Shown: positions 6,279 through 26,978 of the stretch, piece after piece | Layout of the letters: each line of letters opens with the position of its first letter | How positions within the stretch are numbered: position 1 is the stretch's first letter | DNA from: Promethearchaeota archaeon | GTDB taxonomy: Archaea > Asgardarchaeota > Lokiarchaeia > Sigyniarchaeales > SOKP01 | Length of the DNA stretch: 36,357 nucleotides | Direction: 5' to 3' | NCBI GenBank assembly: GCA_037386725.1 | Contig: JARRLT010000048.1 | Span: 1 to 36,357 of the forward strand | Program-made: the position numbers and the translations under genes | Notes under the pieces: generated by a model | Seen by the model: only the letters and a program-made list of their open reading frames with translations | The model's database searches: none | Told to the model about the DNA's origin: nothing

Positions 6279-6472
6279 TTTTTAACGACTCAATTAAAGA
6301 ATGATTTATAAAATTAATAATGGATATAATTTATAAATCTATTTTAAGCATTAAAGTAAACCAAATAATATTTTTGTAGATTGTTACAATTGTTTAGTTA
6401 ATAATTCTTAATTTTAAATATATGTTATAATTTTTAAAAAATGATTAAAATACTTTGAAATGAGAAAAACTT

Positions 6473-9360: not shown

Positions 9361-9568
9361 AACTAAAAATTTTTTTAATTTGGATTGAATTTAAATTAAT
9401 TGAAATTCTAAAACAACTAATATTAAATATTGCTTTTATTATTATTATTTGTTTTCATTGATTCTTACTTTTTAGTTAAATGATTGAAAGAATCAACTTA
9501 AAATGAATTCTGTTTAAATTTTAAAATTATAAGATATACAATTTCTTTTTTGATAATTAGATTAAGAA

Positions 9569-9958: not shown

Positions 9959-10125
9959 TTTTCTTGAAAATTATATTTTTTTATTATATTAAAGAAATTT
10001 TTGGTTAATAAAATATTAGATTTGTAATTTAAAAATGTATTTTGATAATTCTAACGTAAATCTATTGGTTAAAAACCATGCTAATTTGGAATTAATAGAA
10101 GGGTTAAAATAAGAATTTAGAACAA

Positions 10126-10971: not shown

Positions 10972-11271
10972 CTTTTTATTATGTTCTCTTATATATTCTT
11001 AAATAATTTTCACTAATATAGTATTACTATATTACTAATATTAGTTTTACTATTTAATTATTCTTTTTAGAATCTTTATGAATTAATGTAATTAGCTTGA
11101 TAGATTTCTTTTAAAAATCATTTATAAGCTATAATGATCCTTTTTTTATTTTTAGAATCAATTTTAGACATATTCTATAATGAATAATAATATAGAGATT
11201 ATCTTTTTAAATTTTTTTAAAGTTACATATAAAGGTGAAATCCAATTCAAAAAGTTAAAGATTTTGAGATA
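10972..11271. promoter_or_regulatory. Divergent intergenic region between gelsolin-like (-) and aldehyde dehydrogenase (+); TATA-like ttacatataaagg at 11224-11236, about 40 nt upstream of ATG 11272
   Basis: 300-bp AT-rich spacer between divergently oriented genes. The TATA-like element is seen in the sequence; its function is not tested. Confidence 0.3.
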
Positions 11272-12753: not shown

Positions 12754-12866
12754 ACAACACTGCATTATATTTGAATTCTTTTTTTAATTTTAATCATATA
12801 ATCCTTATTCTTTATATTTAAGAAAAATAGTAGGGAGGATATTTTTTGTTAGAAAAGAAAAATAAT

Positions 12867-14380
12867 TTATTCAAAATACTTTATTATTTCTTTTAATTGT
12901 TCAATCATATCCATTGAAGTGAATTTAGTATTATAATTTTCCTTTGTGTATTCTCCTAATAAACCATTCAGAAAAGCGGCTGAGCAAGCAGCTTGGAATG
13001 GCGAATTTTCAGTAGCGAGAAAAGATGTACATAAACCCGCTAAAATATCTCCTGTCCCTCCAACAGCCATTTCAGGACATCCTGTCTTATTTATTTTAAT
13101 CTCTTTACCGTTACTTATATAATCATAAGGACCCTTTACTAATAATGTAATATTTAACTTTTTAGCTAATTGGTGTATCCACTCATAATCTTCAGTTCAC
13201 CTTCATGAGGTGTTAGAATACAAGATTGTCCCTTAATCAAATTAAGATGGTTCTTTATTAATTTTAAAGCATCTGCATCTAAAACAAATGATTTCTTATT
13301 TTTCTTTAGGTATTTTAGAATTTCAACTAATAACTCTTCAGTTTCTTTCTCTTTTCCTAATCCTGGACCAATAACTATTGCATTTGCCCAATCAATCAAA
13401 TAGCATATTTCTTCAAAAGCATCCATTTTTAACCAATTACCAGGTGAGGTACGAACAATCATGTTTGGAGAATATGATCTTACCACGTCCCCAATTACTT
13501 GAGGTGTATAAGTTATCACAAGATCTAACCCAAAATTTATCCCAGTTAAGGAACTATATGTTGGAGCTCCAGAATAATTTTTCGAACCTCCAATAACAAG
13601 CATTCTTCCAAATTGCCCTTTATGAAAATGAAATTGCCTGTGTTTGAGGGTAGGAATTAAATCTCCTCTTCCCACATATATTTGGGCCTCCTGAGGAATC
13701 CCTATAGGCTTTACTATGATTTCCTTAATATAATCACTATTGATGTCCATCCCTATCTTATTTCTATGGAATGTAATAACTAAATCCGCTTTTACTGCTC
13801 TATCGGGAACATTACCAGTATCCGGATCTAAACCAGAAGGAACATCAATAGATACAATTTTAATATTTTCTTGATGATCTTTTATTTCATTAATAAAATC
13901 AATAGCAGTAGCAATTGGTTCTCTTATTTTACCTTTTATTCCTGTACCCAGCATTCCATCTATTAAAACATCAAAATCCTCATTATCTAGAAGGATCCCT
14001 AAACTAACTACATCGGTAGAATCTTTTATTATTTCAAGTGTTATATTTTCCGTGAGATGTTTTGAGATAATATCCCAATTTAGTTTTGCTTCTTCTGTAT
14101 TGATTCTATTTGGTCTACCCATAAGAATCAATCTAACATTTACTCCCATTGAGGATAAATGTCGGGCAATAACAAATCCATCTCCACCATTATTTCCCAT
14201 TCCACAAAAGATTAATACTTTAGAATTGGAATCTAAACCGTATTTTTCGATAACTTCCATTGCAAAAGAATATCCCGCACATTCCATAAGATGAGCTTTG
14301 GGAATTCCTAACCATTCACTATTGTTATCTAATATTCCAACTTCTTTAGAGGAAATTTTATCCTTATATAATCTTTCCAT
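12867..14380 (-). CDS. nnr: Bifunctional NAD(P)H-hydrate repair enzyme Nnr (N-terminal YjeF-N epimerase plus C-terminal ADP-dependent dehydratase), split by a frameshift near 13166-13185
   Basis: Track ORF 13166..14380 carries the epimerase domain and the start of the dehydratase (SCILTPHEGELKIMSGYTN, then stop). A second frame continues ..LAKKLNITLLVKGPYDYISNGKEIKINKTGCPEMAVGGTGDILAGL.. (track ORF 12867..13070), which is the conserved GGxGD end of the dehydratase. A one-base indel would restore the frame. Confidence 0.85.
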
Positions 14381-14522
14381 AACAAATAATTAATGATTCT
14401 TCAAATAAAAAATACTTTTCAATTATATTTTAAAAAATTTGAGCTAGAACCCTATTCTCCAATCAATCGGTTAAGCTTAATTTAGAACCTATCCATCCAT
14501 ACTAATCAATAATAATCTTTTA

Positions 14523-15197
14523 TTGGATTGTGGAGAAGGGACCACTCAAAATTTGTTGAAAATCGATATGATACAGAATATAACTACTATCTGTATAACA
14601 CATCTTCATAATGATCACTTTATGGGCATTTTTTCATTATTATGGTATTATTGGATTAATGAAAGAAAAGAAACTTTAAAAATAATTGGACCTGCAGATA
14701 CTAAGTCTACAATTGAAAAAATCCTCGATCTTATTCATACTCCTGAAAGAATGAAAAGTTTTGAAATTGAATATCTTCCACTAAAAGATATAATAGAAAT
14801 TCAATCAATAGAAGAAGAAAATTATACTATTAAAGCCATAAAAACCAGCCATTTAGATCCCACTTTTGCATTACGGGTTGAAGAGAATGGAAAATCAGTA
14901 TGTTATTCGGGAGATACAAAACCAATTCAAGGATTGATAACATTTTTTGATAATTGTAATCTATTAATCCATGAATCTACATTTCCAGATGAGTTTCAAA
15001 ACCTTGCTCACCAGTTATATCATAGTACTCCCCACGATATAGCTGACATTGCAAATAAATCAAACTGTATTAATATAGCTTTAATCCATATTTCTCCAAC
15101 TTTCCATGAACAAATCGATAAATTCTATACACAAGTTCGCAAACATTTTACTGGGACTATATTTATCCCAGATGATCTATCGATGCTTGAAATTTAA
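14523..15197 (+). CDS. RNase Z-like metallo-beta-lactamase-fold protein lacking the usual N-terminal 40 aa (TTG start in track)
   Basis: LDCGEGTTQ, the HxHxDH motif ITHLHNDH, and SGDTKP, LIHESTF, YHST, LIHISP blocks mirror RNase Z motifs II-V. The frame is closed 9 codons upstream by TAA at 14514-14516 and no N-terminal motif I was found. Confidence 0.7.
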   Translation: MDCGEGTTQNLLKIDMIQNITTICITHLHNDHFMGIFSLLWYYWINERKETLKIIGPADTKSTIEKILDLIHTPERMKSFEIEYLPLKDIIEIQSIEEENYTIKAIKTSHLDPTFALRVEENGKSVCYSGDTKPIQGLITFFDNCNLLIHESTFPDEFQNLAHQLYHSTPHDIADIANKSNCINIALIHISPTFHEQIDKFYTQVRKHFTGTIFIPDDLSMLEI

Positions 15198-15213
15198 ATT
15201 ACTTTAATTTTTG

Positions 15214-15840
15214 TTATTTTTTAGAAAAAGAGCTTTCAATGATAAATTTTAGTTCTCTAAAACTACTAATCTCAAATTCTGAGCAAAAATTAATTTTATG
15301 TTGTTCTCGAATAAACCTAATTGTTTTAAAACCTATTTTTGCGGCGGATTGAAGATTTCTCAAAGAATCATCTACTAATAGACATTCTTGAGGAAGAACG
15401 TCAGCGTTTTTTAAAAGACATTTAAAAATACTTGAATTAGGTTTTCTAAATCCCTCCTCTCCACTAACCACAATAACATCAAAAAATTTATTCAGATCAA
15501 ACTTTTTTCTTAAAAATTTAGACCACTCTTTAATATCATTTGAAATAAAAGCTAAGTGGAACATTGTTTTTAAATAACTTGCTACATCATAAAATTCAGA
15601 ATCAACTTCAAACATACTGAGATATTCGTGTTCTATATCAGGATAGCTGTTAATCAAGCCTATCTTCTTCCAAAATAGATAGGATGATATTTTCCCTAAT
15701 GTAGCTTCTTGATATGTTTTAATGATTATTTCTTCAGTAAGATTAACCTTTTTTTCCTTGAGGAAAGGAAGAAGATAACTTTTCACAATTTCTCTGTTTA
15801 TGAAAATTACTCCCATTCCATCAATGATAATCCATTTCAT
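15214..15840 (-). CDS. HAD-superfamily hydrolase (subfamily IA-like)
   Basis: Motif I IIDGMGVIF and motif III/IV region VVSGEEGFRKPNSSIF...LLVDDSLRNLQSAAKIG. Confidence 0.8.
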   Translation of the reverse strand: MKWIIIDGMGVIFINREIVKSYLLPFLKEKKVNLTEEIIIKTYQEATLGKISSYLFWKKIGLINSYPDIEHEYLSMFEVDSEFYDVASYLKTMFHLAFISNDIKEWSKFLRKKFDLNKFFDVIVVSGEEGFRKPNSSIFKCLLKNADVLPQECLLVDDSLRNLQSAAKIGFKTIRFIREQHKINFCSEFEISSFRELKFIIESSFSKK

Positions 15841-15895
15841 TATTTCATTCTTATTTAATGTAGATTTTAGATTTGATTTATTTTATTGAAAAATT

Positions 15896-16567
15896 TTATT
15901 GAATAGGAATTAAATCACAAAAATAAAACCTATTACCATGAGAAAAGATATCCCCTTTTTTGAATGCGATTTTTTCTTGGAATATTGGTCCATCATATAC
16001 AAAAGAATGAAATTCTCCATTCTCACCGCATGGATCAACATTAGGGGGAAGGTTGGATAAAAAATCAAGATCATACTCCCTTCCAACAAATTTCTTATCA
16101 AGTACTTCAGAATCAACGCAAGTAATGATTGCCTTAAATCCTAAGTTGATAACTTTATTAGATAGCTGTTTTGTTTCTTTTTTCCATAGCGGAAAAAGTG
16201 CTTTCATTCCAATTTTTGATAAGTTGATTTCCCGATAACTTCTTAAGTCTTCTAAGAAAATGTCTCCAAAAACAACAGTAGTAACGCCATTTGTTTTATA
16301 CTTTGTTAAGATCTCTCTCATTTTTAACTCATACCCTTTATTGGATTCCTTATTTTTAAGAAAAATTAATTCGATCGGAATTCCTAAAGCACTCGCTTGT
16401 TGTTCAAGTAGAATTTGCTGAACTCCATGCATCATAGTTCTATTGTTATCTTTAACTAGATTTGTCAATAAAGCAATAACTTCATATTTTCGAGCCTTTT
16501 GAAGTTCATAATAGGCCAAAGCACCATCTTTTCCACCACTCCATGTAAAAAGTACTTTTTCCTTCAT
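15896..16567 (-). CDS. Dph6-like / MJ0570-family PP-loop ATP-binding protein (diphthine-ammonia ligase-type ATP pyrophosphatase domain)
   Basis: N-terminal PP-loop FTWSGGKDGALA, plus ..VVFGDIFLEDLRSYRE.. and C-terminal DPCGENGEFHSFV, typical of the MJ0570/Dph6 N-terminal domain family. Confidence 0.75.
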   Translation of the reverse strand: MKEKVLFTWSGGKDGALAYYELQKARKYEVIALLTNLVKDNNRTMMHGVQQILLEQQASALGIPIELIFLKNKESNKGYELKMREILTKYKTNGVTTVVFGDIFLEDLRSYREINLSKIGMKALFPLWKKETKQLSNKVINLGFKAIITCVDSEVLDKKFVGREYDLDFLSNLPPNVDPCGENGEFHSFVYDGPIFQEKIAFKKGDIFSHGNRFYFCDLIPIQ

Positions 16568-16669
16568 AATTATACGTTATTATCAAGTAAATTAAAAACT
16601 TATTAGGTTAATTAAATGGTTCTTAGTTAAAACATCTATTCTTACATAAGATTTTAAAATGAGATAAGT

Positions 16670-16849
16670 ATGAGTAAAAAAGTAATAAAGAAAGTTAAAT
16701 GCCGGCGGTGGGATTTCCAAGATGTAGCGAATCGCTACAATTTTATGAGCCCACGACCTCTAGATTCCATCCGTCTGACCCAATTTTTTCAGAGAGATTA
16801 TGAGTCTAGCGCGTATTCAACCAGAAAACAAACGATAACCTTCATATAA
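16670..16849 (+). CDS. Possible 59-aa small ORF (MSKKVIKKVKCRRWDFQDVANRYNFMSPRPLDSIRLTQFFQRDYESSAYSTRKQTITFI) in a locally GC-elevated intergenic patch
   Basis: ORF just below the 60-aa track cutoff, hand-translated from ATG 16670 to TAA 16847-16849. No recognisable family. It overlaps a hairpin (gtagcgaatcgctac) and could instead be a structured RNA or nothing. Confidence 0.2.
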   Translation: MSKKVIKKVKCRRWDFQDVANRYNFMSPRPLDSIRLTQFFQRDYESSAYSTRKQTITFI

Positions 16850-16856
16850 GAAAATT

Positions 16857-17548
16857 TTAAGTGGTAATGAATGATTTTATTTTAGAATTTACCAATTTGG
16901 GTTCATCATGCATTACCCAATGTGATCCATTCTCAACTTTAAAAATTTCTAGATCCTCTACATACTCCTCTAAACCCTCAAGAACCACTGGCATTACAAA
17001 CATATCTTTCATTCCAAATATAACTAGGGTTGGCACCTTAATGATTCCAGTAAATTCAGAAAAATCTTGATTAGCTCTATAATAATTAACTCCTCCTAAA
17101 ATTGCTCCTGATTGAGACCATGCACTGATATATTTTTTTATATTTTCGGATGAGGTGCATTGAGAATTATTAACTTATTAAGCAATTCGGGGTGTTGTTC
17201 CGCAAAAATCCATGCGATCATCCCACCCCAGTCATGCCCTATTAAAGTAACTTTTTCAAGTTGGAGTGTTTGACAAATACTTCTTACATCTTCAATTAAA
17301 TATTGGATTTTATAACTTTCTTGATTTTCTGGCTTATCGGACAGATTATAACCTCTTAAATCTGGAACTATTAACTTGAACTCCTCTTTCAAGCCTAATA
17401 TTATGTCTTTCCAACCATACCAAAAATCGGGAAATCCATGAAGTAAAATTACCGGCTTCCCAGATCCAAAGATTAGCGTATGAAGTTTCACTTCATTGGA
17501 ATCTATATACTTTTCTTCTGCTTCTTGTTTAAGATCCATATTTATCAA
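16857..17548 (-). CDS. Alpha/beta-fold hydrolase (epoxide-hydrolase / haloalkane-dehalogenase-like) with a frameshift at the T7 homopolymer 17143-17149
   Basis: Track ORF 17138..17548 gives LLHGFPDFWYGW...VPDLRGYNLSDKP...LIGHDWGG (nucleophile elbow) ..NAPHPKI, then stop. An adjacent frame continues ..SAWSQSGAILGGVNYYRANQDF..VPTLVIFGMKDMFV..ENGSHWVMHDEP.. to TAA at 16857-16859. This is the expected cap and His-containing C-terminus. The plus-strand track ORF 16861..17070 is antisense to this region. Confidence 0.8.
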
Positions 17549-17721
17549 CTTTTTAATTTTAAAAGAAGGTTTTTGTATAAATAATATTTATCTTCTTTTC
17601 TAATATGAAACTTTCATGAATTTTATTTGATATAAACTAGAAGGTAATTTAAATGAATGAGTTTTAAAAAATAGTAGAAGAGAGTTAAAAAGTCAAGAGA
17701 AAAGCATGTAAAATTATAATC

Positions 17722-17825
17722 TGGAGCCCTTGGGGGGGTATGATCCCCCGACCTTTGCCTTTTAGGGTAGTAGGGGAAACCCACTTCGTACCAAGGCAAC
17801 GCTCTACCGACTGAGCTACAAGGGC
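17722..17825 (-). tRNA. tRNA with anticodon GGU (Thr) carrying a 28-nt intron at the canonical 37/38 position
   Basis: Reverse complement: GCCCTTG TA GCTC AGTCGGTAG AGC G TTGCC TTGGTA [CGAAGTGGGTTTCCCCTACTACCCTAAA] A GGCAA AGGTC GGGGG ATCATAC CCCCC CAAGGGC T CCA. The acceptor has a perfect 7 bp stem, and the D-arm GCTC/GAGC is canonical. The anticodon stem TTGCC/GGCAA closes only after intron removal. It is the only strongly GC-rich intergenic block in this part of the window. The T-loop is atypical (ATCATAC). Confidence 0.65.
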
Positions 17826-17994
17826 TTATAAAAAAAGATTTTCCTTGTGATATTAACCAATTTTCTAAGAATAATTTCTTGTTTAATAGATTATTCTATG
17901 AAATTTATAATTTTTTTAATTAATTGATAATAATAAATTTTGCTAAAATAAAATAAAGAGTTTTCTCCTTTCCTTCTAAATTCAAGATCTGTAC

Positions 17995-18672
17995 CTAAAT
18001 ACCAAAAATTTGAGTAAAAATAATTCCTTGTGTGATGAGAAATAGAGCAATGCCGTAAGTGAGCATCACATAAAATCGATCGTGAGGGATATGTTTATCA
18101 AATTTATCAATAGCAATTATTCCATCTGAAATAATAAATAAGAGAGACCCAATCCATGGAAATAGAAATGATAAGGAGATAAAATTAAATGAATCCAATC
18201 TTAAGATTGCAAAGAGTCCCATAGTAAAAATTGCTGCTACATAAACGTATGTCGGAATCTTAAGATCCCCCATTTTCCCTTGAATTCTGAATAGTATAAA
18301 ACTCATAATAAAAATTTCAAAAAGGATTAGAAAGAATCCCCAAAAAGGAAAAGATAAAATATTTGCAATGGATAATGCGAAACTAATTATGAAGAAGATC
18401 TGACAAATTAGAAACGAACCAAGACCATATATAAACCATTTCCCTTCTTTCTCCACCATTAGAAAAAAATCTCCAAACCAGGCAAAAATAAGTCCAACAA
18501 TGAAGAACCAGTTTAAAATACCTAAGTTTAGATTAAATACATAATACAAGATCAAAAGTGGCATTAGAAACGGTTTTGTGATAAGTCGAATTTTAACATT
18601 CTTAAACCATTCTCCGCCTATATGAATAATAAGTAATAGAAAATATAGAACAAGAAATATAATTGATATCAT
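17995..18672 (-). CDS. YhhN-family (TMEM86/lysoplasmalogenase-like) polytopic membrane protein
   Basis: 225 aa, about 7 hydrophobic segments. The conserved blocks KPFLMPLLILYY, GLIFAWFGDFFLM and GLGSFLICQIFF, and the C-terminus YGIALFLITQGIIF, parallel E. coli YhhN (KPLTLLLL / GLCASLLGDALTL / GAFFLSHLLY / AGHFLIVRSL). Confidence 0.6.
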   Translation of the reverse strand: MISIIFLVLYFLLLIIHIGGEWFKNVKIRLITKPFLMPLLILYYVFNLNLGILNWFFIVGLIFAWFGDFFLMVEKEGKWFIYGLGSFLICQIFFIISFALSIANILSFPFWGFFLILFEIFIMSFILFRIQGKMGDLKIPTYVYVAAIFTMGLFAILRLDSFNFISLSFLFPWIGSLLFIISDGIIAIDKFDKHIPHDRFYVMLTYGIALFLITQGIIFTQIFGI

Positions 18673-18874
18673 TTTGAATTCTCTATAATATTTTTATTAA
18701 TTATAATTATTTCAACTTAAGACACATAAATTTTAAATTTTAAGGTTTAATTCAAAATATAATATCACTATTCCTTTAGGGAAATAAAGCTAAAATAGAA
18801 GGGGGATATTAATTTAACTTTAATCTAGTATAGATGATTTTCTATCTTGATGTTATTATCTATACTTGATATCA

Positions 18875-19425
18875 TTATAACAAGAAAATTCCCAAAATGT
18901 CTCCTTGAACTATAAGAAATTGGGCTATAATATATGTAATTAATACAAATATACCCGTATGTGGAATTTTTTGGTCAAACATATCGATTAGGATGATTCC
19001 ATAATACACTTGGAATATCAAGGACCCTACCCAAACAAGATAAAATGATAACCCAAGAGATCCTGGTAATCTAAGTATTGAAAATAAATTCATAAAAATA
19101 TCTTGTTTTAGTGATTGTATTTCAAAAAGGCTATAATATAACTAAACTGACCAACTATCAAAAATATAACTCCATTTAACCAATGTTCTTCTTCATGATA
19201 AAAAATAAAAAAGAAGTTTCCAATAAACCCACATACTAGTCCAATAACTATAAAATAGTTAATATTTCCAAATGGAACACTAAAAATATCATACAATATA
19301 AGAGTAATCAAAATAGAAGGGAGACTATAATATTGAAGCTTTTTTTCTCTTCTAAATACAAAAAATGTATGTAATACGCTAACCGAGATAAAAAGTATTA
19401 AAAATATTAGGGCTATGATGTTCAT
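18875..19425 (-). CDS. Tandem paralogue of the YhhN-family membrane protein, split into two ORFs (19108-19425 and 18875-19093) by a frameshift
   Basis: The N-terminal ORF (MNIIALIFLILFIS..IVIGLVCGFIGNFFFIF) and the C-terminal ORF (..IDMFDQKIPHTGIFVLITYIIAQFLIVQG) align to the N- and C-terminal halves of 17995..18672 respectively. The frames differ, and there is a 14-nt gap between the ORFs. Confidence 0.5.
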
Positions 19426-19601
19426 TTTAATTACCTAGTTTTTTTAGTTGTTTAAATATTACTAAAATTAAATGAATTATTGTTTGGGATTAATTCATCA
19501 TACTAAAAAAATCTAAATTCTTAATTTTAAAAATTTTAATGTTTAATATAATATATCAATAGAATAAGAGTAAATAAAATTTTAAACAAAAATTTAATAT
19601 T

Positions 19602-20522
19602 TTATACTTCTTCTTTTTCGGTTTTCTTTCCTGGTGTGTAAATTTTTATTTTAGGTACATTTATTTTAGGAATTCTAAGCTTTGGTATAGAAATATTGAG
19701 AGAAGATTTTGGAAAAGGTAAATTTAATTCTAAATCTTTTAAGGGATCTTCTCCATTTTTCTGAAGAACGCTTTTTGAATCTGCTGGTTCAGAATCTAAA
19801 TTTTTACTTGGTTTAACTGTTCTTCCACTTTCCTTTTCTATTTTTACTTCACTCTGAGCTTCAACTTTATTTTCTTCTTTTTTGAAAATTTGATTCATTT
19901 TTACTACTTTATCGTATTTCAAATCAGGCAACATTTTCCTAAACTCTGTAATACTCTCAATTTCTTTTACTTTTTCGTTTTCTAGATTAAAAATCCAGCC
20001 TGATTCATCATCGTGGAGATATCCCTTAATTTTTACTTTTAATGGTAGTATCTCCATATTTTTGAGGTAATTTACTTGGTTTTTAACATTTCGAAATTCA
20101 TCAACAAAAATATGAAAAAATTTAATTGTTTCTTGGGATACATTTACTCCACGAGCGCCAATTTCTCGAAGAACTTTACTAGGCATTGTTTTAATCATTT
20201 TTAAGGGATTTACTTCCTTTAATTCACAATTAGTATGTCCCATTATAATGATTTCTTTAATGTTGTGTTTATGCACAGCTATAAGAATTGAACGAATCAT
20301 ATCATCAGTAATTATATTACCTGCATTTCTTAATACAATAATATCATTTTGATGAAGACGAAATATACGAGAAAGATCAATATTATGATCCATACATGTT
20401 ATGACAATAATTGGATAATTTGGGTGCTCTTTTTTCTCAATCTCGATCTCTAAATCTTCTTGAATCTCTTTCTGATATAAACTATTGAAATATAACAACA
20501 CATCATCTTGATACTCTTCCAA
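19602..20522 (-). CDS. Beta-class carbonic-anhydrase-like protein with a C-terminal Lys-rich extension
   Basis: IVITCMDHNIDLSRIFRLHQNDIIVLRNAGNII parallels the beta-CA block lVitCmDSRv...VvRNaGN. IIIMGHTNCE parallels vmGHtdCG. The Zn ligands Cys/His/Cys are present but the Arg of CxDxR is not (DHN instead of DSR). The last 120 aa are K/E/P-rich with a repeated PK(I/L) motif. Confidence 0.65.
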   Translation of the reverse strand: MEEYQDDVLLYFNSLYQKEIQEDLEIEIEKKEHPNYPIIVITCMDHNIDLSRIFRLHQNDIIVLRNAGNIITDDMIRSILIAVHKHNIKEIIIMGHTNCELKEVNPLKMIKTMPSKVLREIGARGVNVSQETIKFFHIFVDEFRNVKNQVNYLKNMEILPLKVKIKGYLHDDESGWIFNLENEKVKEIESITEFRKMLPDLKYDKVVKMNQIFKKEENKVEAQSEVKIEKESGRTVKPSKNLDSEPADSKSVLQKNGEDPLKDLELNLPFPKSSLNISIPKLRIPKINVPKIKIYTPGKKTEKEEV

Positions 20523-20598
20523 ATTTTATCCTCTCCTTTCAAATAGCTATTTTAAAATTAATAAAAGTAATTTAAAAATATTAAAAAAATTGATTTAA

Positions 20599-22473
20599 TT
20601 ATTTAGCAATAATTTCTTTTAAATTATGTTTCATATCCTTTCCACCGTTACCTAAAAAGTTCTTGATCTTATCAGAATATTCGGGTAAAATCGTTAGAAA
20701 TGGGATTATAGCTTTAGCGAGAGCTGAAAAGGATTCATTCCCATCCCCCATTATGAACATTTTCTCTGGATTAATACTTTTAAAAATTTCCGGTAGAATA
20801 TTAGTCAATTGGACAGCTAAAAATCTTTGATCTGCGTTACTCATCGCATCAACCTGTTTCTGAAAACCTTCTGCTTGAGCCATCATTTGTTGTTTAATAC
20901 TTGCAGCCTCACCCTCTGCTTGCGCAATTAATCTCTTTTTAATCTGTGCTGCATCGGCTTCCGCTTCAATAACTTTCTTTTGACGATCTCCATCTGCTTC
21001 AATCTTTTTACGTTCTCTTTCTTGTTCAGCGATTGCGATTTCTTTTTCTTTTCTACGTAATTCAATATCTCGTTGAACTAATTGCTCTTGAGTACCAACT
21101 TCATTCTGTACTTCCAATTCTCTCATTCTTGATTCCCGTTCCGCATCAGCCTTAGCAATACGAGCTGTTCTATACACTGTTGCTTGTTTAGTTGCTTCCA
21201 TATTCTTCTTTAATTCGGGTTCAAGTATGTTCACTTCTCTTATTTCTATAGATTCAATTATAAGACCCCAATCTGATGTTAATTCATGTAACTCTTTACT
21301 TACATGTTCAATAATCTCACGTCGCTCTCTAATAATTTTTTCAAGAGGCATATTAGCACATGTAGTTCTAATTATAGCTTCTGCAGCATTTTTCAAGATT
21401 TTTTCTACATAATGATCATCTTGGGGATTCCATGAGATGGCACTAAAAGCGTTTTCAGGGTTAATTACTTTCCAAATTAACATTCCTACTATAGAAATAT
21501 TTTGGTATTCCATGGATACTACCTGTTCATGAGCCTCTAGAATTGTTTGTATACTTGTAGTAGGAATTACAATATATTCATCAATCAGTGGCAACAACCA
21601 GATTCTTCCTCCTAATCCAGCAGATTTTACTCTACCATTCCTTAAATGGATCACAAACTGATTCGTTTTAAACTTTCTGTATCGTGTGGCTAAAAATATG
21701 AGAAATAAAAATGCGATTATCACGACAGTAACTATAACACCTACAATCACTCCATTAATCTGTTGAAATAACATTCTTTTTCTTCCTCCTTTTTTATAAT
21801 TAATTTGACCTTTTTCAAAAACCTCCCCCTCCTTATAAGGCTTCACATGCAATTTCTCGTATTTCAATGGATTTCTTGAAGCTATCTTAATAACCCCACC
21901 ATATTCATCGACTTTTAAAACAACTTCCCCTTCTACCCCTAACAAATTTTGAGTTGCAGCTATTGTATAATGCATGGAAGTAGCAATTTTTTCCCAGAGT
22001 ACTGAAATAACCTTAGTGGCTAAAATACTTGCAATAGGAGCAATAATAAACAATAAAAATTTGAAAATACCTATGATTAGATAATATGATGCCATCCCAG
22101 TAATTCCAAAAACTAATAATGCTGAGGAAAGTAAAAGTAAGAATGGTGCGGGAGTACTACCTTCCTGTATCATTGTATCTGTTTGAAATTCATTAGTATA
22201 ATCTACATGATCCACATGATCTGGATGGTCCACATGATCAACGTGATCTATGTGATCAGGATGATCTAAATAAATAGCATGGTCAATATGGTCTATATGA
22301 TCAGGATGGTCCACATGATCAACGTGATCAGGATGATCTAAATAATCAGCATGGTCTATATGATCAGGATGGTCAGGGTGATCAATATGATCGATGTGAT
22401 CTGTGCCTTGATCATGATCAGTAGAAGTTTCAGTTAAAATAAACGAAATTATGGCTAAAATTAATCCTCCAAT
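20599..22473 (-). CDS. NfeD-like (2 TM plus OB-fold) / SPFH-flotillin fusion protein with an N-terminal tandem His/Asp (DHxDH) repeat region. The track start is GTG at 22312-22314, but the frame is open up to 22473 and encodes a hydrophobic N-terminal segment
   Basis: Order of elements N to C: (i) open frame IGGLILAIISFILTETS... with no canonical start; (ii) DHPDHIDHIDHA(I/D)YLDHPDH(I/V)DHVDHV, two copies plus a partial; (iii) 2 TM helices; (iv) beta-barrel GVEGEVVLKVDEYGGVIKIASRNPLKYEKLHVKPYKEGEVFEKGQ (NfeD-C-like); (v) TM helix; (vi) SPFH/band-7 domain (VIHLRNGRVKSAGLGGRIWLLPLIDEY...); (vii) EA/EQ-rich coiled coil typical of flotillins (AEGEAASIKQQMMAQAEGF..). Confidence 0.8.
   Translation of the reverse strand: MGGLILAIISFILTETSTDHDQGTDHIDHIDHPDHPDHIDHADYLDHPDHVDHVDHPDHIDHIDHAIYLDHPDHIDHVDHVDHPDHVDHVDYTNEFQTDTMIQEGSTPAPFLLLLSSALLVFGITGMASYYLIIGIFKFLLFIIAPIASILATKVISVLWEKIATSMHYTIAATQNLLGVEGEVVLKVDEYGGVIKIASRNPLKYEKLHVKPYKEGEVFEKGQINYKKGGRKRMLFQQINGVIVGVIVTVVIIAFLFLIFLATRYRKFKTNQFVIHLRNGRVKSAGLGGRIWLLPLIDEYIVIPTTSIQTILEAHEQVVSMEYQNISIVGMLIWKVINPENAFSAISWNPQDDHYVEKILKNAAEAIIRTTCANMPLEKIIRERREIIEHVSKELHELTSDWGLIIESIEIREVNILEPELKKNMEATKQATVYRTARIAKADAERESRMRELEVQNEVGTQEQLVQRDIELRRKEKEIAIAEQERERKKIEADGDRQKKVIEAEADAAQIKKRLIAQAEGEAASIKQQMMAQAEGFQKQVDAMSNADQRFLAVQLTNILPEIFKSINPEKMFIMGDGNESFSALAKAIIPFLTILPEYSDKIKNFLGNGGKDMKHNLKEIIAK
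22200..22420 (-). repeat. Tandem 84-87-nt direct repeat (two full units plus a partial) encoding the DHxDH His/Asp-rich motif inside the flotillin-fusion gene
   Basis: Units gaccatcctgatcatatagaccat(att/gct)gac/gat..tatttagatcatcctgatcac(ata/gtt)gatca(c/t)gttgatcatgtg recur with few substitutions. gatcat/gaccat hexamers dominate 22200-22420. Confidence 0.8.
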
Positions 22474-22479
22474 TTATAT

Positions 22480-22986
22480 TTAATCTAAATCTACAATTTT
22501 ATTACCACACATTGGGCAATAACGTACCTTATTGTCTAATTCTTCTCCACAAAAAGAACAATATTTTACTTTTGTCTCTTTCTTTATATAAAATGGTTGA
22601 ATTTCTTGAGAATTCTTATTTACTTGATTTAAGGTTGGATCGTCTTTATTATAAATTAAATTTTTCTCTTCATTTTGTATAGTTCTTTCAATTATATAAG
22701 GATTTTTAACCGTATAATCTGAATCATCTCGTGTTCTAATAGGATGATTTCGACTTCGATTATGATTACATGCGGAAGTAATAATAATACAGAATATAAT
22801 GAAGAATATGATTCCAAAAAGTGACATTGGCATAGATGATAGGGATATATTGAAAATCTTTACATCTAAGTTCATTCTACTTATCAAAAGACTAAAAATC
22901 GAAGTCAATATGACAAATCCAAATAAAATGCCAATAGAATTGTAAAATTTGTTTTTATTTTTCATTTTTAGTATAATATATTTCAA
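22480..22986 (-). CDS. Membrane protein with a C-terminal zinc-ribbon (CxxC..CxxC)
   Basis: 168 aa; two hydrophobic helices, then YCSFCGEELDNKVRYCPMCGNKI at the C-terminus. Confidence 0.55.
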   Translation of the reverse strand: MKYIILKMKNKNKFYNSIGILFGFVILTSIFSLLISRMNLDVKIFNISLSSMPMSLFGIIFFIIFCIIITSACNHNRSRNHPIRTRDDSDYTVKNPYIIERTIQNEEKNLIYNKDDPTLNQVNKNSQEIQPFYIKKETKVKYCSFCGEELDNKVRYCPMCGNKIVDLD

Positions 22987-23091
22987 TCTATTTCTATCTA
23001 TTTTTGTATATTTCCAAAAATATTATATATAATTAAATATATAAATCTTTCGATAAAAAAATAATTTATCAGATCTTACTTTTAAAGTGGT

Positions 23092-23316
23092 TCAATATAG
23101 AATATATACATATATATTGATTGTAATTATTTGATCGAAATTATTTAGATTCCTGATTAGATTATCATTTTTTGATATTAGTTTTAATTTATCGGATATA
23201 GATTCTTTACCAGTATCAGAATCCATCCCGAGAATTTCCAGCCATTCATCTTTCGATACTCTACACTTTACCAGCTCTCGAATAATCTTTACGGTAAAGG
23301 CTCTTATAAAGACCAA
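23092..23316 (-). CDS. Hypothetical 74-aa ORF (overlaps an open plus-strand frame; one of the two is probably spurious)
   Basis: Track ORF only; no motif. Confidence 0.2.
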   Translation of the reverse strand: MVFIRAFTVKIIRELVKCRVSKDEWLEILGMDSDTGKESISDKLKLISKNDNLIRNLNNFDQIITINIYVYILY

Positions 23317-23376
23317 GGTAAGATTATTTATTCAGTAATAGAAGAAGCTATTAGGATATATGAGAAATATTTTTCA

Positions 23377-23649
23377 ATGCCCGCTGATGTTGCGGCAATA
23401 CTTGAGAAATATGAGGATAACTTCGGAGGAGAATGGGAATTTATTATGGAAGCATTAAGAGAATATGACAAAAAGAAAAATCCGGACAAATCTGAAGACT
23501 TAGACTTATGGTGTCGGACCAGAGAAGAATTACAGATGATGTTGATTGGAAAAACTACTTTTAGTCAAATGTTAACTGCCGCAGAAACTCCTGAAATGAG
23601 TTTAGAAAAACCTATGATCAAAACAGACGTTACAGTAATTATTGGTTAG
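23377..23649 (+). CDS. Hypothetical small protein (90 aa from ATG; frame open upstream to 23188 without a canonical start)
   Basis: Helix-like composition (AILEKYEDNFGGEWEFIMEALREYDKK). The frame is open for 154 codons, which is unusual in this AT-rich DNA. Confidence 0.35.
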   Translation: MPADVAAILEKYEDNFGGEWEFIMEALREYDKKKNPDKSEDLDLWCRTREELQMMLIGKTTFSQMLTAAETPEMSLEKPMIKTDVTVIIG

Positions 23650-23890
23650 GTTATTTTAAAGAATTGTTTTCTTCAGATGATTTAGGCTTTAAATGTAAGG
23701 TAGACGGCCAAGCATTTGATGAAACTCTATCATTAACCATTCAGAAGATCGTGTAATATTGCCTTTGCTTCAATAAAAAGAAATTGTAATAAACATATTT
23801 TAATCATTAATAATAAAAATAATAATAATAATAGATATAACGGGAAAGTTTCTATTGGGAAAAAATAAGACAAAATATTAGGGAAAAAAT

Positions 23891-24076
23891 TTGAAATTAT
23901 TTAAAAAGAGATCAAAAAAACCTCATAAATTAGTAAGATGTGCTACTTGTGGTGGGACGGGAATGGTCGAAACATACTATGCTGATTCTTGGCTTGAGAT
24001 ATCAGGAGGAATGGGCGCAAATAGTGCTAAAGAACCTTGTCCTAACTGCGGTGGATCTGGTTGGATTGAAAAATAA
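23891..24076 (+). CDS. DnaJ-CR-type zinc-finger mini-protein (two CxxCxGxG knuckles), copy 1, TTG start
   Basis: MKLFKKRSKKPHKLVRCATCGGTGMVETYYADSWLEISGGMGANSAKEPCPNCGGSGWIEK. CATCGGTG and CPNCGGSGW match the DnaJ cysteine-rich repeat CxxCxGxG. The SD-like AGGGAAAA sits upstream. Confidence 0.7.
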   Translation: MKLFKKRSKKPHKLVRCATCGGTGMVETYYADSWLEISGGMGANSAKEPCPNCGGSGWIEK

Positions 24077-24159
24077 TTGAAATTAAGGTTTTTATATATA
24101 ATAGGAAACCTTCTTTGAGAAATACTAAGACAAAAAGCGAGGTTAAAATCTTGAAAATA

Positions 24160-24342
24160 TTCAAAAAGAAATTAAAAAAACCCCATGAAGCAATAAGATG
24201 TCCTTTGTGTGGTGGGACGGGGATGGTTAGAAAATTCTATCCTGATACTGCTCTAGGGTGGTTAGGTGGGAAAATGAATTCATCGAGTGCTGAAGAACCT
24301 TGTCCTAAATGCGATGGAGTTGGTTGGGTTGAAAAAATATAA
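24160..24342 (+). CDS. DnaJ-CR-type zinc-finger mini-protein, copy 2 (tandem paralogue). The homologous TTG start is at 24160; the track uses an in-frame ATG at 24115
   Basis: MKIFKKKLKKPHEAIRCPLCGGTGMVRKFYPDTALGWLGGKMNSSSAEEPCPKCDGVGWVEKI. The 5' region aligns with copy 1 at nucleotide level, including the upstream taagacaaaa..agg..ttgaaa motif, so the conserved start is TTG 24160 preceded by GAGGT. Confidence 0.7.
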   Translation, partial: FKKKLKKPHEAIRCPLCGGTGMVRKFYPDTALGWLGGKMNSSSAEEPCPKCDGVGWVEKI

Positions 24343-24566
24343 ATCTTTAAAATAACTTATCCTTCTTTTTTTACCAATTTGAAGTTGATAAAGTTTTTAT
24401 CATCACAAAGAATATCTAATTTTAGGCTCATTTCGAAATTTTTAAGTTTAAAGAAAAATTTTGAAAGCTATTAGATTATTATTTGAGATTAAAATAAAGT
24501 AGAGATTTTACATACTATATCCTGGTAAGGATCGTTTCGTGTAATAATCCCAACCCTGAGTTTGAT

Positions 24567-26978
24567 ATGAGCGAAGAAAAACTAAAAATACATAAAAGAA
24601 AGATAGAAGCAATCTCTGAAATGGTTAGAAATGCGTACGACAACGCGAAGCCGGGGGAATATTTCTCTCTAAAAAAGGCGAGTGTTTCCCATATGGCCCC
24701 ACAGCCGGATAACCCAAAATATAGTGATAAGCCGATAGATGTGAGGTCACTTACAGAAATTATTGAGATAAATACGGATGCAAGGACGTGTATTGCAGAA
24801 GCAGGGGTTACTTTTGATAAACTTGCAAGAGAAACCTTAAAGTATGGGCTCGTACCGCAATGCGTTTCCGAGCTCAAGGGAATCACGATAGGTGGGGTAG
24901 TAGCAGGATGTTCAGTTGAATCCATGTCTTTCAAGTATGGGGGATTTTTCGATTCTTGTGAAGAAATAGAGATTGTGACAGGAACAGGTGACATAATGTT
25001 ATGCTCGAAAAGTGATAACCATAAAATATTCGAGATGCTGCACGGGAGTTTCGGTACAATTGCAATCATCACGCTCCTAAAGTTCAAGCTTGTTCCAGCA
25101 AAGAAGTGCGTCCGTATCGATTACATCCATTACGATACTTTTAGTGAATATATGGAAGCTATCAAGCAACACTACGAAAAGCAGGATATTGAAATGATGG
25201 ACGGGCTTATCTTCTCCGAAAATAAGAACGTACTCTGCGTTGCCAGCTTTGTTGATGAGGAGGAAGCTCCTTACAAGAGTAAGTATTTCTACGACATTTA
25301 TTATAAAAGTGCAATGAAAAGAAAGCAAGACTTCCTCTCCACCATAGATTATTTTTTCAGGTATGATGCAGATTGCCATTGGTCGATACGAAATGTTGCT
25401 GGAGGAATTTTTGAGAATAAAGTAGTCCGGTGGTTAGTAGGACCCTATATACTTGGATCGACAAATATTCTTAAGACCAGCGAACGATTACCATTTTTAA
25501 CTAAGAAGGGGGGCGAACCGGACGTGATTGTTGATGTCTTCATACCAATCACTAACGCGGAAGAATTTTTCAATTGGTACCTGGAGTTATTTGATTACTT
25601 CCCAGTTTGGATCGTCCCTTACCGCATGCAAAAAAACAAACTAGATGGGTACAAATTCTACCCATGGATCAATCAAGATATGATCGCTCCCATCGAGGAT
25701 GAGCTATTCATAGATTTTGCCATCTACGGGTTCGAGCAAAAAAGAAAGGGATTTAACTTCTATAAAGCGCTAGAAGAAAAGGTTCATGAACTTAGGGGAA
25801 TGAAAACCCTAATAACTCATAATTACTACGAGGAAGACTTGTTCTGGAAGGTATTTAACAAGAAATTATATGATAAAGTTAAAGAACAAACGGATCCCAA
25901 GAACCTATTTCGAAACTTGTATGAAAAGACGAATTACAAGAAAAAGACTAAAAAGACGAAAAAACTGAAGGTAGGTATACCACGTTCCCTGTATTTCTAC
26001 AAGTATTTTCCATTATGGGAAGGATTCCTTACAAATCTCGGTTGCGAAGTTATTGTGAGCCCAAAAACAAATAAAGAAATTCTTACCAACGGATCTAATC
26101 AATCTGCAACCGATTTATGCATTCCAATCAAGATTCATTATGGTCATGTAAATTATTTATCAAGAAATCACCCCGATCTAGATTTTATATTAGTTCCAAG
26201 ACTCATTAGTAATAGTAAAGATCATTATTATTGTCCGAAATTCCTGATCCTTCCAGATGTTACTCAACACTCAGCAGTTTCTAATATTCCCGTTATTGAA
26301 TGGACTATTAATGCCAGGGAATATTCAATGATGAAATCAGCAATAGATTTTGGAAAAAAATTAGATAGATCAAAAGAAGAATCAAAACTTGCGTATGAAA
26401 ATGGATATAAAAAACTTGAAGAATTCCATGAGTTGATCAAGGATGGAATTTTTGTTCCTGATGCCCTTTACAAAATGTATCCTTTTGAAGAATATCCAAA
26501 TTATAAATTCAAGAAAAGATTTCGACCTAAACTTAACAAAGATTATAAAAATTATCCACTTTCATTAATGGTTATTGGTCATCCATACAATACTTATGAG
26601 CCAATTATTAATCATGGATTAATGGATATTCTCAAATCTAATTTTGTTGATGTTATAACTGTTGAAAATGCTCCAAAGGAAATCTTTTCAAGAAGAGTTG
26701 AAATTGATGATAATCTTTGCAATTTCTGGGATAATGAAGATGAATTGATGCAATTATCTGATTATGTTATCCATAATGAAGAGATTGATGGGGGTATTTT
26801 CTTGATTTCTTTTGCATGTGGTCCTGATTCTTTAATTCAAGAATTAATAATGCAAGATTTTGACATGAAAGATAAACCTTTTATTGATCTCACATTAGAT
26901 GAACACAGTGGAGAATCTCAAATAACCACAAGAGTAGAATCTTTTATCGAAATGATAAGGAGGAAGAAATACAAATGA
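24567..26978 (+). CDS. Fusion protein: DHCR24-like (delta24-sterol-reductase family) FAD-dependent oxidoreductase (aa 1-460) plus a DUF2229-type domain, the usual partner of BadF/BcrAD/HgdC-type activase ATPases (aa 470-803)
   Basis: Blocks shared with DHCR24 are LKGITIGGVVAGCSVESMSFKYGGFFDSCEEIEIVTGTGDIMLCSKSDNHKIFEMLHGSFGTIAIITLLKFKLVPAKKCVRI, ..YFYDIYYKS.., DYFFRYDADCHWSIRNV, VWIVPYRM and LFIDFAIYGFEQKRKGFNFYKALEEKVHELRGMKTLITHNYYEEDLFWKVFNKKLYDKVKEQTDPKNLFRNLYEK. The corresponding DHCR24 blocks are [110 protein letters not shown] and LYIDIGAYGE...[29 protein letters not shown]. A K-rich linker (KKKTKKTKK) follows, then LKVGIPRSLYFYKYFPLWEGFLTNLGCEVIVSPKTNKEIL..ATDLCIPIKIHYGHVNYL..LDFILVPRLIS, which is the DUF2229 signature. 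The stop overlaps the next start (ATGA 26975-26978). Confidence 0.85.
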   Translation: MSEEKLKIHKRKIEAISEMVRNAYDNAKPGEYFSLKKASVSHMAPQPDNPKYSDKPIDVRSLTEIIEINTDARTCIAEAGVTFDKLARETLKYGLVPQCVSELKGITIGGVVAGCSVESMSFKYGGFFDSCEEIEIVTGTGDIMLCSKSDNHKIFEMLHGSFGTIAIITLLKFKLVPAKKCVRIDYIHYDTFSEYMEAIKQHYEKQDIEMMDGLIFSENKNVLCVASFVDEEEAPYKSKYFYDIYYKSAMKRKQDFLSTIDYFFRYDADCHWSIRNVAGGIFENKVVRWLVGPYILGSTNILKTSERLPFLTKKGGEPDVIVDVFIPITNAEEFFNWYLELFDYFPVWIVPYRMQKNKLDGYKFYPWINQDMIAPIEDELFIDFAIYGFEQKRKGFNFYKALEEKVHELRGMKTLITHNYYEEDLFWKVFNKKLYDKVKEQTDPKNLFRNLYEKTNYKKKTKKTKKLKVGIPRSLYFYKYFPLWEGFLTNLGCEVIVSPKTNKEILTNGSNQSATDLCIPIKIHYGHVNYLSRNHPDLDFILVPRLISNSKDHYYCPKFLILPDVTQHSAVSNIPVIEWTINAREYSMMKSAIDFGKKLDRSKEESKLAYENGYKKLEEFHELIKDGIFVPDALYKMYPFEEYPNYKFKKRFRPKLNKDYKNYPLSLMVIGHPYNTYEPIINHGLMDILKSNFVDVITVENAPKEIFSRRVEIDDNLCNFWDNEDELMQLSDYVIHNEEIDGGIFLISFACGPDSLIQELIMQDFDMKDKPFIDLTLDEHSGESQITTRVESFIEMIRRKKYK

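What the first reader, a model, noticed from the sequence alone, without database searches (positions are those of the whole stretch)
20599..22473. Single-polypeptide NfeD-flotillin fusion with a tandemly duplicated extracytoplasmic His/Asp (DHxDH) repeat and an ambiguous start
Established: in bacteria and archaea, SPFH (stomatin/flotillin) genes are normally paired with a separate NfeD gene (membrane anchor plus OB-fold). Seen: here the NfeD-like module (2 TM plus beta-barrel GVEGEVVLKVDEYGGVIKIAS...) and the flotillin module (TM plus SPFH plus EA-rich coiled coil) are fused into one ORF. It is preceded by about 90 residues made almost entirely of DHxDH units, encoded by an 84-87-nt tandem repeat that is probably length-variable.

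His/Asp-rich repeats of this kind are typical of metal-binding (Zn/Ni/Cu) domains. Upstream of the annotated GTG the frame stays open for 53 more codons, including a signal-peptide-like hydrophobic segment, but has no canonical start codon. The true N-terminus is therefore unresolved (non-canonical initiation or an indel).
Basis: partly seen in the sequence, partly recalled or inferred. Interest (0 to 1): 0.65.

Follow-up and report, generated by a model that had tools for sequence, protein, structure and literature searches.

The report
Two genes joined by sequence deletions
The apparent NfeD-flotillin fusion with no start codon is produced by two short deletions private to this assembly; underneath is the ordinary two-gene NfeD-plus-flotillin pair of an Asgard archaeon, whose NfeD partner carries a real, conserved Asp/His-rich repeat loop.

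Summary
The 624-codon open frame (minus strand, 22473..20599) exists in the window as described, and so does the DHx repeat. The fusion and the missing start are not native. A 99.9%-identical independent assembly (Logan SRR13768071_30) holds two segments that the window lacks. One is 63 nt between ATTGGAGGAT direct repeats and holds the RBS, the ATG and 15 codons. The other is 114 nt and holds the last 21 codons, the TGA stop and most of the spacer. A third assembly (GCA_037386705.1) also has the stop and spacer. None of 85 related Asgard loci has a fused ORF: a 170-330 aa NfeD-like gene always lies 46-340 nt upstream of a separate 389-394 aa flotillin gene. The window lacks 12 such 46-175 nt segments over 20 kb, and these break other conserved genes, so an assembly artefact is the likeliest cause. 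The upstream protein has three TM helices and a C-terminal OB barrel that matches solved NfeD domains (PH1510-C, YbbJ, YuaF). Its 75-residue DHx loop is identical in all three assemblies, conserved in the nearest clade, replaced by His-free Asp repeats in others, and predicted to be disordered. By helix parity it is probably cytoplasmic, not extracytoplasmic. Metal binding is untested. Interest is low.

The parts
22480..22986 (-). Upstream gene: membrane protein with a C-terminal zinc ribbon, the first gene of the conserved cluster.
   Evidence: ORF. Pfam Zn_Ribbon_1 E 8.2e-06 at aa 142-163. Called as 161 aa in L001 and L005. A relative lies upstream of the NfeD-like gene in most Asgard loci.
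22464..22473 (-). Junction of deletion 1. It is a single copy of ATTGGAGGAT where L001 has two copies 63 nt apart. The lost 63 nt hold the true RBS (GGAGGA), the ATG and codons 1-15 (MDIYDIFFSICLGLF). The GGAGGA left in the window is in fact codons Gly-Gly of TM1.
   Evidence: The N-terminus MD[IL]YD[IL]FF.ICLGLFIGG is conserved in homologues.
21808..22473 (-). Remnant of the NfeD-like (YqiJ-type) gene: codons 16-237 of the 258-codon gene seen in L001, lacking the start and the last 21 codons plus stop.
   Evidence: 146 homologues of 168-331 aa, named NfeD family or DUF1449 family by NCBI.
22432..22473 (-). Remnant of transmembrane helix 1 (IGGLILAIISFILT).
   Evidence: Hydropathy scan of the full-length protein. 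Helix in the AF2 model.
22198..22422 (-). Asp/His-rich repeat loop: 75 aa, 22 DHx triplets, 9-nt unit with a 72-nt higher-order period. Predicted to be disordered.
   Evidence: pLDDT about 36. Identical in three assemblies. Conserved as D+H-rich in the nearest clade and as His-free D-rich in others, 50-210 aa long.
21994..22152 (-). Transmembrane hairpin (TM2 22072-22152, TM3 21994-22065) with the family-invariant P-A-P...FG..G motif.
   Evidence: AF2 helices 106-129 and 134-164 of P0121. Invariant columns. Weak Pfam YqiJ_N match over this stretch.
21808..21945 (-). NfeD OB-fold domain, truncated. Only the first three of five beta strands are left. The strands EKVFVVGV and QILLV fall in the missing 114 nt.
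   Evidence: AF2 strands 178-186, 189-195, 202-209, 221-228 and 231-235, pLDDT 84-94. Foldseek top hits are 3wwv, 3cp0, 2k5h, 8z5g_AA and 2k14. Deletion mapped.
21807..21808 (-). Junction of deletion 2. It is 114 nt in L001 (3673-3786): the last 21 codons of the NfeD-like gene, the TGA stop and most of the 81-nt spacer. Microhomology is 3 nt at most.
   Evidence: L005 agrees with L001 over the first 100 of these 114 nt, including the stop.
21775..21807 (-). Remnant of the intergenic spacer, read as QINYKKGGRKR in the fused frame. It holds the flotillin RBS AGGAGG at 21785-21790.
20599..21774 (-). Flotillin-type SPFH gene, 391 aa plus stop, intact: N-terminal TM, Band_7 domain, Glu/Ala-rich coiled coil.
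   Evidence: P0001 is 100% identical and 391 aa, and all 120 listed homologues are 375-399 aa. Band_7 scores 89.8 bits. The best solved relative is human flotillin-1, E 4.4e-12.
19602..20522 (-). Downstream gene of the conserved cluster: beta-carbonic-anhydrase-like protein (Pro_CA) with a Lys/Glu/Pro-rich C-terminal extension.
   Evidence: Pfam Pro_CA E 3.4e-14. It lies directly downstream of the flotillin gene in 57 of 66 Asgard loci with room.

Best explanation
The locus is the ordinary two-gene NfeD-flotillin module of an Asgard (Promethearchaeota/Lokiarchaeia-type) archaeon. It sits in a conserved cluster: Zn-ribbon membrane protein, NfeD-like protein, flotillin, beta-CA-like protein.

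In the native sequence, the 258-aa NfeD-like protein has its own RBS and ATG. Its layout is TM1, a disordered Asp/His-rich loop, a TM2-TM3 hairpin and a C-terminal OB barrel. It ends at a TGA 81 nt before the flotillin's own RBS and ATG.

The window's copy has lost 63 nt at the 5' end and 114 nt at the 3' end. Because 114 is a multiple of three and the two genes happen to share a frame, the remnant reads through into the flotillin gene. This looks like a start-less fusion. The deletions are two of at least 12 in this assembly and are most likely assembly or consensus errors.

How it works (inferred from characterised relatives): the cytoplasmic OB domain binds the flotillin's coiled-coil region and stabilises flotillin oligomers on the membrane. 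The polyanionic, His-rich loop probably lies on the same cytoplasmic side and probably binds divalent cations or protons. That last step is inference only.
For: Deletions:
- L001 (Logan SRR13768071_30) is 99.9% identical to the window but holds the 63-nt and 114-nt segments.
- The restored residues match the family consensus at both ends: MDIYDIFFSICLGLF at the N-terminus and GEKVFVVGVKNQILLV at the C-terminus.
- L005 (GCA_037386705.1) also has the stop and spacer, and carries different private deletions of its own.
- The window lacks 12 segments of 46-175 nt over 20 kb. Only 4 of the 12 are multiples of 3, and other conserved genes are truncated.

Separate genes in relatives:
- No stop-to-stop ORF in 85 loci hits both profiles. 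Wherever both genes were located, the spacer is 46-340 nt, apart from three loci where the NfeD-like ORF is itself broken.
- The lengths of all listed homologues fit separate genes.

NfeD identity: the AF2 barrel has pLDDT 84-94. The top five Foldseek PDB matches are all NfeD OB domains, TMt 0.73-0.79 and rmsd 1.4-1.9 A for the best two.

Mechanism in relatives: nfeD is the first gene and the flotillin gene the second. The OB domain is cytosolic, binds the FloA coiled coil and stabilises oligomers (PMC11222466). YuaF/YqiJ pair with flotillin-like YuaG/YqiK (PMC2636767).

DH loop: identical in three assemblies and conserved in relatives.
Against: - No raw reads were available, so a real deletion allele in the window's source population cannot be excluded.
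- The first deletion lies between 10-nt direct repeats, which is also what replication slippage would produce.
- Neither junction version was found in JGI metagenome contigs, so there is no fourth witness.
- Sequence-level matches to Pfam NfeD and YqiJ_N are below the curated cut-offs. Family assignment rests on fold, architecture and gene order.
- The cytoplasmic location and cation binding of the loop are inferred, not tested.
Confidence: 0.88

Rival explanations
1. The deletions are real in the genome the window comes from. That strain would carry a decayed nfeD allele (no RBS or ATG, OB barrel missing two strands) that happens to be in frame with the flotillin gene. Only the flotillin would be made, from its own RBS and ATG.
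For: The 63-nt deletion is bounded by ATTGGAGGAT direct repeats, as slippage would give. A second assembly (L005) shows a different 54-nt in-frame deletion in the same TM1 region. That could reflect real instability.
Against: Twelve deletions in 20 kb at 99.5-100% flanking identity truncate several conserved genes, with no excess of in-frame sizes. That density of independent disabling deletions is implausible in a living lineage so close to an intact one. Most junctions have 0-4 nt of microhomology. L005's private set differs, which fits pipeline errors better than biology.
Confidence: 0.08
2. This is a real evolved single-polypeptide NfeD-flotillin fusion, translated from a non-canonical start codon (ATT or ATA) after the GGAGGA at 22465-22470.
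For: The frame is open for 624 codons, and a GGAGGA precedes in-frame ATT and ATA codons.
Against: That GGAGGA encodes Gly-Gly inside the conserved TM1. The OB barrel is truncated. The linker is translated intergenic spacer that still carries the flotillin RBS. No fusion appears in 85 loci or among the listed homologues of either part (120 listed in each). Two other assemblies of the same organism have two genes.
Confidence: 0.02
3. The window is correct, and the Logan contig (and L005) carry spurious insertions.
For: None beyond the formal symmetry of an indel.
Against: The extra segments encode residues conserved across the family. They also restore full-length YhhN, hydrolase, lactamase_B and YjeF_N/carbohydrate-kinase genes of the same length as in the 87%-identity relative L002. 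At each site the longer version is backed by two of the three assemblies.
Confidence: 0.01

Closest known systems
E. coli YqiJ (DUF1449) - YqiK flotillin pair
   Same: The gene order matches: a small membrane protein directly upstream of a flotillin-type SPFH gene. The layout also matches: TM1, a loop containing Asp/His (LDAHLDHYD in YqiJ), a Pro-initiated TM hairpin and a C-terminal beta domain. NCBI names several of the Asgard homologues DUF1449 family protein. There is a weak Pfam YqiJ_N match and a weak hhalign match to YqiJ's C-terminus.
   Different: The sequence matches are sub-threshold: 18.9 bits against a cut-off of 23, and hhalign probability 51%. The loop is expanded from about 10 to 50-210 residues of DHx or Dx repeats. 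The flotillin partner is 391 aa against 553 aa for YqiK.
Short NfeD proteins with solved OB domains: B. subtilis YuaF (2K14), P. horikoshii PH1510-C (3WWV), E. coli YbbJ in the QmcA-YbbJ cage (8Z5G), S. aureus NfeD-FloA
   Same: The C-terminal five-stranded barrel superposes (TMt 0.73-0.79, rmsd 1.4-1.9 A). Like these, it has an N-terminal membrane anchor and an operon with an SPFH gene. In S. aureus the OB domain is cytosolic, binds the flotillin coiled coil and stabilises oligomers (PMC11222466).
   Different: None of these is reported to have a long Asp/His repeat loop. Pfam NfeD does not reach its cut-off on the Asgard proteins. Binding to the Asgard flotillin is untested.
Eukaryotic and bacterial flotillins (human flotillin-1, 9BQ2; FloT/FloA)
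   Same: It has a Band_7 domain followed by a Glu/Ala-rich coiled coil. Human flotillin-1 is the best solved relative by sequence (E 4.4e-12).
   Different: It has an N-terminal TM helix rather than a hairpin or acylation (own knowledge for the eukaryotic proteins). The NCBIfam FloT equivalog scores far below its cut-off (38.7 against 700 bits).
His-rich metal-binding loops and tails (ZIP/CDF transporter loops, HypB, UreE, Hpn)
   Same: Composition only: dense His with Asp, low complexity and predicted disorder. This comparison rests on my own knowledge, not on a tool result.
   Different: No homology was found. Sister clades of the same family have no His at all in this loop. The shared property is therefore polyanionic charge rather than His ligands.

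Membership tests
NfeD family (OB-fold partner of SPFH proteins) | C-terminal five-stranded OB-fold beta barrel | tested here: met
   AF2 model of P0121 (identical to the native protein apart from an 18-aa gap in TM1): five strands, pLDDT 84-94. The top five Foldseek PDB hits are all NfeD OB domains. In the window's own copy the last two strands are deleted.
NfeD family (OB-fold partner of SPFH proteins) | N-terminal transmembrane anchor | tested here: met
   Three hydrophobic helices by hydropathy and in the AF2 model.
NfeD family (OB-fold partner of SPFH proteins) | Gene directly upstream of, and co-oriented with, an SPFH gene | tested here: met
   L001, L002, L005 and the surveyed Asgard loci.
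NfeD family (OB-fold partner of SPFH proteins) | Sequence match to Pfam PF01957 above the gathering score | tested here: not met
   No NfeD hit for the window ORF or the L001 protein. Only 9 of 63 relatives give weak hits, best E 1.7e-4.
NfeD family (OB-fold partner of SPFH proteins) | Physical binding of the OB domain to the SPFH partner | not testable with these tools
   Known for S. aureus NfeD-FloA (PMC11222466) and QmcA-YbbJ (PDB 8Z5G). Not examined for the Asgard pair.
YqiJ / DUF1449 subfamily | Match to Pfam YqiJ_N or to E. coli YqiJ | tested here: inconclusive
   YqiJ_N E 0.0017, 18.9 bits against a cut-off of 23. Five of 63 relatives give weak hits. hhalign of A1 against YqiJ gives probability 51%, E 1.5e-4, over 43 C-terminal columns.
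Flotillin-type SPFH protein | Band_7/SPFH domain above the Pfam cut-off | tested here: met
   89.8 bits against 23.6.
Flotillin-type SPFH protein | Closer to flotillins than to stomatin or HflK/C; Glu/Ala-rich coiled coil after the SPFH domain | tested here: met
   The best PDB sequence hits are human flotillin-1, then stomatin and QmcA. The EA-rich segment is visible in the translation. The NCBIfam FloT equivalog is not reached (38.7 against 700 bits), so it is not an orthologue of FloT.
   L001 and L005 both have a stop codon and a spacer.
   No ORF in 85 loci hits both profiles. No listed homologue has a fused length.
   The OB barrel lacks two strands. The RBS, ATG and 15 codons are missing.
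His-rich metal-binding domain | Measured binding of Zn/Ni/Cu or another cation | not testable with these tools
   Only composition is known: 24 Asp and 21 His in 75 aa. Sister clades have no His.

The most novel reading that the evidence does not exclude
The expandable polyanionic loop of Asgard YqiJ-type NfeD proteins (DHx repeats in this clade, Dx repeats in others, 50-210 aa) may be a functional cation- or proton-binding module held at the flotillin microdomain. It would act within a conserved four-gene Asgard unit: Zn-ribbon membrane protein, NfeD, flotillin and a beta-carbonic-anhydrase-like protein. That would give a first concrete biochemical handle on what an archaeal flotillin microdomain does. 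The fusion itself plays no part in this reading.
Probability: 0.2. Interest if true: 0.45.

Novelty: new member of a known kind. Interest (0 to 1): 0.12.

Why it matters
The main value is as a caution. An apparently novel domain fusion with a 'non-canonical start' disappears once the window is compared with a second assembly of the same organism. The same window carries at least ten more such deletions, so any odd ORF in it needs the same check.

What remains is a normal NfeD-flotillin operon. Its unusual feature is a conserved, length-variable Asp/His (or Asp-only) disordered loop in the NfeD partner. It also sits in a conserved neighbourhood with a Zn-ribbon protein and a beta-CA-like protein in Asgard archaea. 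That is a modest lead for people who study SPFH microdomains or Asgard cell biology.

Tried and rejected
- PDB sequence search with the NfeD-like protein gave only low-complexity noise (Med31, V8 protease). The fold search was needed.
- NCBIfam gave nothing useful for the NfeD-like protein.
- Exact-pattern scans of JGI metagenome contigs for the fused junction and for the intact junction both found nothing. A scan of viral contigs also found nothing. So there was no fourth witness, and the window's source was not located.
- The genome-contig scan did not contain the window's own genome; the best match was 87-88% identical.
- An exact-protein look-up of the window's 404-aa ORF (13166-14380) found nothing, most likely because the window's copy is truncated. 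The Logan contig has 523 aa there.
- A literature search for the run and assembly accessions found nothing.
- I tested whether His-rich loops go with the downstream beta-CA-like (zinc enzyme) gene. They do not: the gene is present with both His-rich (25 of 27) and His-free (32 of 39) loops.
- I considered introns or programmed excision as the cause of the missing segments and rejected it. The segments hold conserved coding sequence, a stop codon and intergenic DNA, and a third assembly lacks a different set.
Full report
**What the window shows**

On the minus strand the frame is open from 22473 to the TAA at 20601-20599, 624 codons. The first canonical start in it is GTG at 22314, inside the repeat. 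Pfam finds only Band_7, at aa 269-445 (89.8 bits, cut-off 23.6).

Residues 18-92 (window 22422-22198) hold 24 Asp and 21 His in 75 residues, as 22 D-H/Y-x triplets. At the DNA level this is a 9-nt unit repeated about 21 times, with a 72-nt higher-order period (2.3 copies, 80% matches). It is not 84-87 nt.

Inside the ORF, and in frame, lie an AGGAGG (21790-21785) and an ATG (21774).

**Organism and homologues**

All 120 best homologues of the whole ORF are 375-399 aa SPFH/flotillin proteins of Asgard archaea (Promethearchaeota and relatives). They cover only the C-terminal 56-63% of the query, which corresponds to the 391 aa that begin at the internal ATG. One of them (P0001, 391 aa) is 100% identical and lies on a Logan contig, SRR13768071_30.

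**The fusion and the missing start are two deletions**

That contig (L001/L087) is 99.9% identical to the window. It contains two segments that the window lacks.

- At the 5' end, L001 has ATTGGAGGAT twice, 63 nt apart. The first copy is the RBS. It is followed by ATG and the codons for MDIYDIFFSICLGLF. The second copy encodes I-G-G-L of the first TM helix. The window keeps a single copy (22473-22464), so the 'RBS without a start codon' is really coding sequence.
- At the 3' end, the window lacks 114 nt (L001 3673-3786). These hold the last 21 codons (EKVFVVGVKNQILLVNNTTNI), the TGA stop and most of the 81-nt spacer.
- The two genes share a frame and 114 is divisible by three, so the remnant reads through the rest of the spacer (QINYKKGGRKR) into the flotillin gene.

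The native upstream protein is 258 aa. The restored residues match the family consensus at both ends.

A third assembly (NCBI GCA_037386705.1, L005) also has the stop and spacer. It carries its own, different deletions of 54, 97 and 130 nt. At every variable site the long version is supported by two of the three assemblies.

**The deletions run across the whole window**

Over 20 kb shared with the Logan contig, the window lacks 12 segments of 46-175 nt. Identity between them is 99.5-100%.

- Only 4 of the 12 sizes are multiples of three.
- Most junctions have 0-4 nt of overlap.
- Several ends abut A/T homopolymers.
- They truncate AF_0136_C-like, YhhN, alpha/beta-hydrolase, lactamase_B and YjeF_N/carbohydrate-kinase genes. 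These genes are full-length in the Logan contig and in an 87%-identity relative.

I take this as an assembly or consensus artefact. Without reads, a real deletion allele cannot be excluded (about 8%). Either way it is not an evolved fusion, because the OB domain is cut and the start is gone.

**Comparative test**

A scan of species-representative genomes with a flotillin alignment returned 80 Asgard loci. With the five fetched earlier, none of the 85 loci has a stop-to-stop ORF that hits both the NfeD-like and the flotillin profiles.

The NfeD-like gene lies upstream on the same strand, with a spacer of 46-340 nt in nearly all loci where both genes were located. Homologues of the upstream protein are 168-331 aa. 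NCBI names them 'NfeD family protein' or 'DUF1449 family protein'.

**What the upstream protein is**

An AF2 model built with 63 homologues gives the following:

- TM1.
- A disordered loop (pLDDT about 36).
- A TM hairpin.
- A five-stranded barrel (pLDDT 84-94).

The top five Foldseek matches in the PDB are all NfeD OB domains: 3WWV (PH1510-C), 3CP0, 2K5H, 8Z5G chain AA (YbbJ in the QmcA-YbbJ complex) and 2K14 (YuaF). For the best two, TMt is 0.73-0.79 and rmsd 1.4-1.9 A.

Sequence-level matches are sub-threshold. YqiJ_N scores E 0.0017. Pfam NfeD matches 9 of 63 relatives. hhalign against E. coli YqiJ gives 51% probability.

E. coli YqiJ has the same layout, with a short LDAHLDHYD motif in the equivalent loop, and it precedes the flotillin YqiK.

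**Likely mechanism (by analogy)**

In bacteria nfeD is the first gene and the flotillin gene the second. The OB domain is cytosolic, binds the flotillin coiled coil and stabilises oligomers (PMC11222466; PMC2636767).

In the Asgard proteins all Lys/Arg of the NfeD-like protein lie from the TM hairpin onward. The flotillin TM helix is followed by RYRKFK. These place both soluble domains in the cytoplasm. With two helices between the loop and the OB domain, the DH loop should then also be cytoplasmic. This is inference, but it contradicts the 'extracytoplasmic' label.

**The DH loop**

- It is identical in three assemblies, so it is not an assembly artefact.
- It is conserved as D+H-rich in the clade nearest the window.
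- It is replaced by His-free D-x repeats (DIDVDVD...) in other clades.
- It varies from about 50 to 210 residues.

The shared property is therefore a polyanionic disordered loop, and His is a clade-specific addition. Cation or proton binding is plausible but untested. A 2006 paper speculated on a metal-trafficking role for the Shewanella DUF1449/YqiK pair (PMC1468410).

**Verdict**

The headline claims (single-polypeptide fusion, non-canonical start) are not real biology. What is there is a new member of the known NfeD-flotillin gene pair, with an unusual low-complexity loop. Interest is low.

Noticed in passing
window 6252-24955 (junctions near 24372, 23617, 23183-23302, 22473, 21807, 19098-19123, 17978, 17140, 16834, 14483, 13178, 7030): Compared with Logan contig SRR13768071_30, the window lacks 12 segments of 46-175 nt at otherwise 99.5-100% identity. 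These truncate several conserved genes: AF_0136_C-like, YhhN, alpha/beta hydrolase, lactamase_B and YjeF_N/carbohydrate kinase. NCBI MAG contig JARRLU010000435.1 shows a different private set. Any unusual ORF in this window should be checked against L087 first.
   Followed up: partly
window 19602-22986; loci L001-L078: A conserved Asgard four-gene cluster: Zn-ribbon membrane protein, NfeD-like protein, flotillin and beta-carbonic-anhydrase-like protein. The CA-like gene directly follows the flotillin gene in 57 of 66 loci with enough flank. The more distant Heimdallarchaeota-labelled flotillins (48-52% identity, L079-L085) show no detected NfeD-like or CA-like neighbours.
   Followed up: partly
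P0160, P0168, P0169, P0172 (homologues); window 22480-22986: In some Asgard lineages the NfeD-like protein carries a CxxC...CxxC zinc ribbon fused to it. In the window the zinc ribbon sits on a separate membrane protein encoded just upstream. This real fusion in relatives links those two genes functionally.
   Followed up: no
window 19602-20522 (-): The beta-CA-like protein reads CMDHN where canonical beta-CAs have CxDxR (own knowledge of the motif). It keeps HTNC and has a roughly 140-aa Lys/Glu/Pro-rich C-terminal extension. It may not be a standard carbonic anhydrase.
   Followed up: no
window 20599-21774 (-); The flotillin is 74-88% identical across MAGs labelled Loki-, Thor-, Odin-, Hod- and Hermodarchaeota. 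That is very high for such deep lineages. Its best solved relative by sequence is human flotillin-1. Taxon labels of MAGs may be unreliable, and two hits sit in bins labelled Bathyarchaeota and Nanopelagicaceae.
   Followed up: no
L087 16205-16594 and 16803-18959 (window about 9569-9958 and 7204-9360): A Roadblock/LC7-like gene lies next to a 718-aa VWA-domain protein, and a MazE-like antitoxin gene lies further on. This content is typical of Asgard genomes and was not examined.
   Followed up: no
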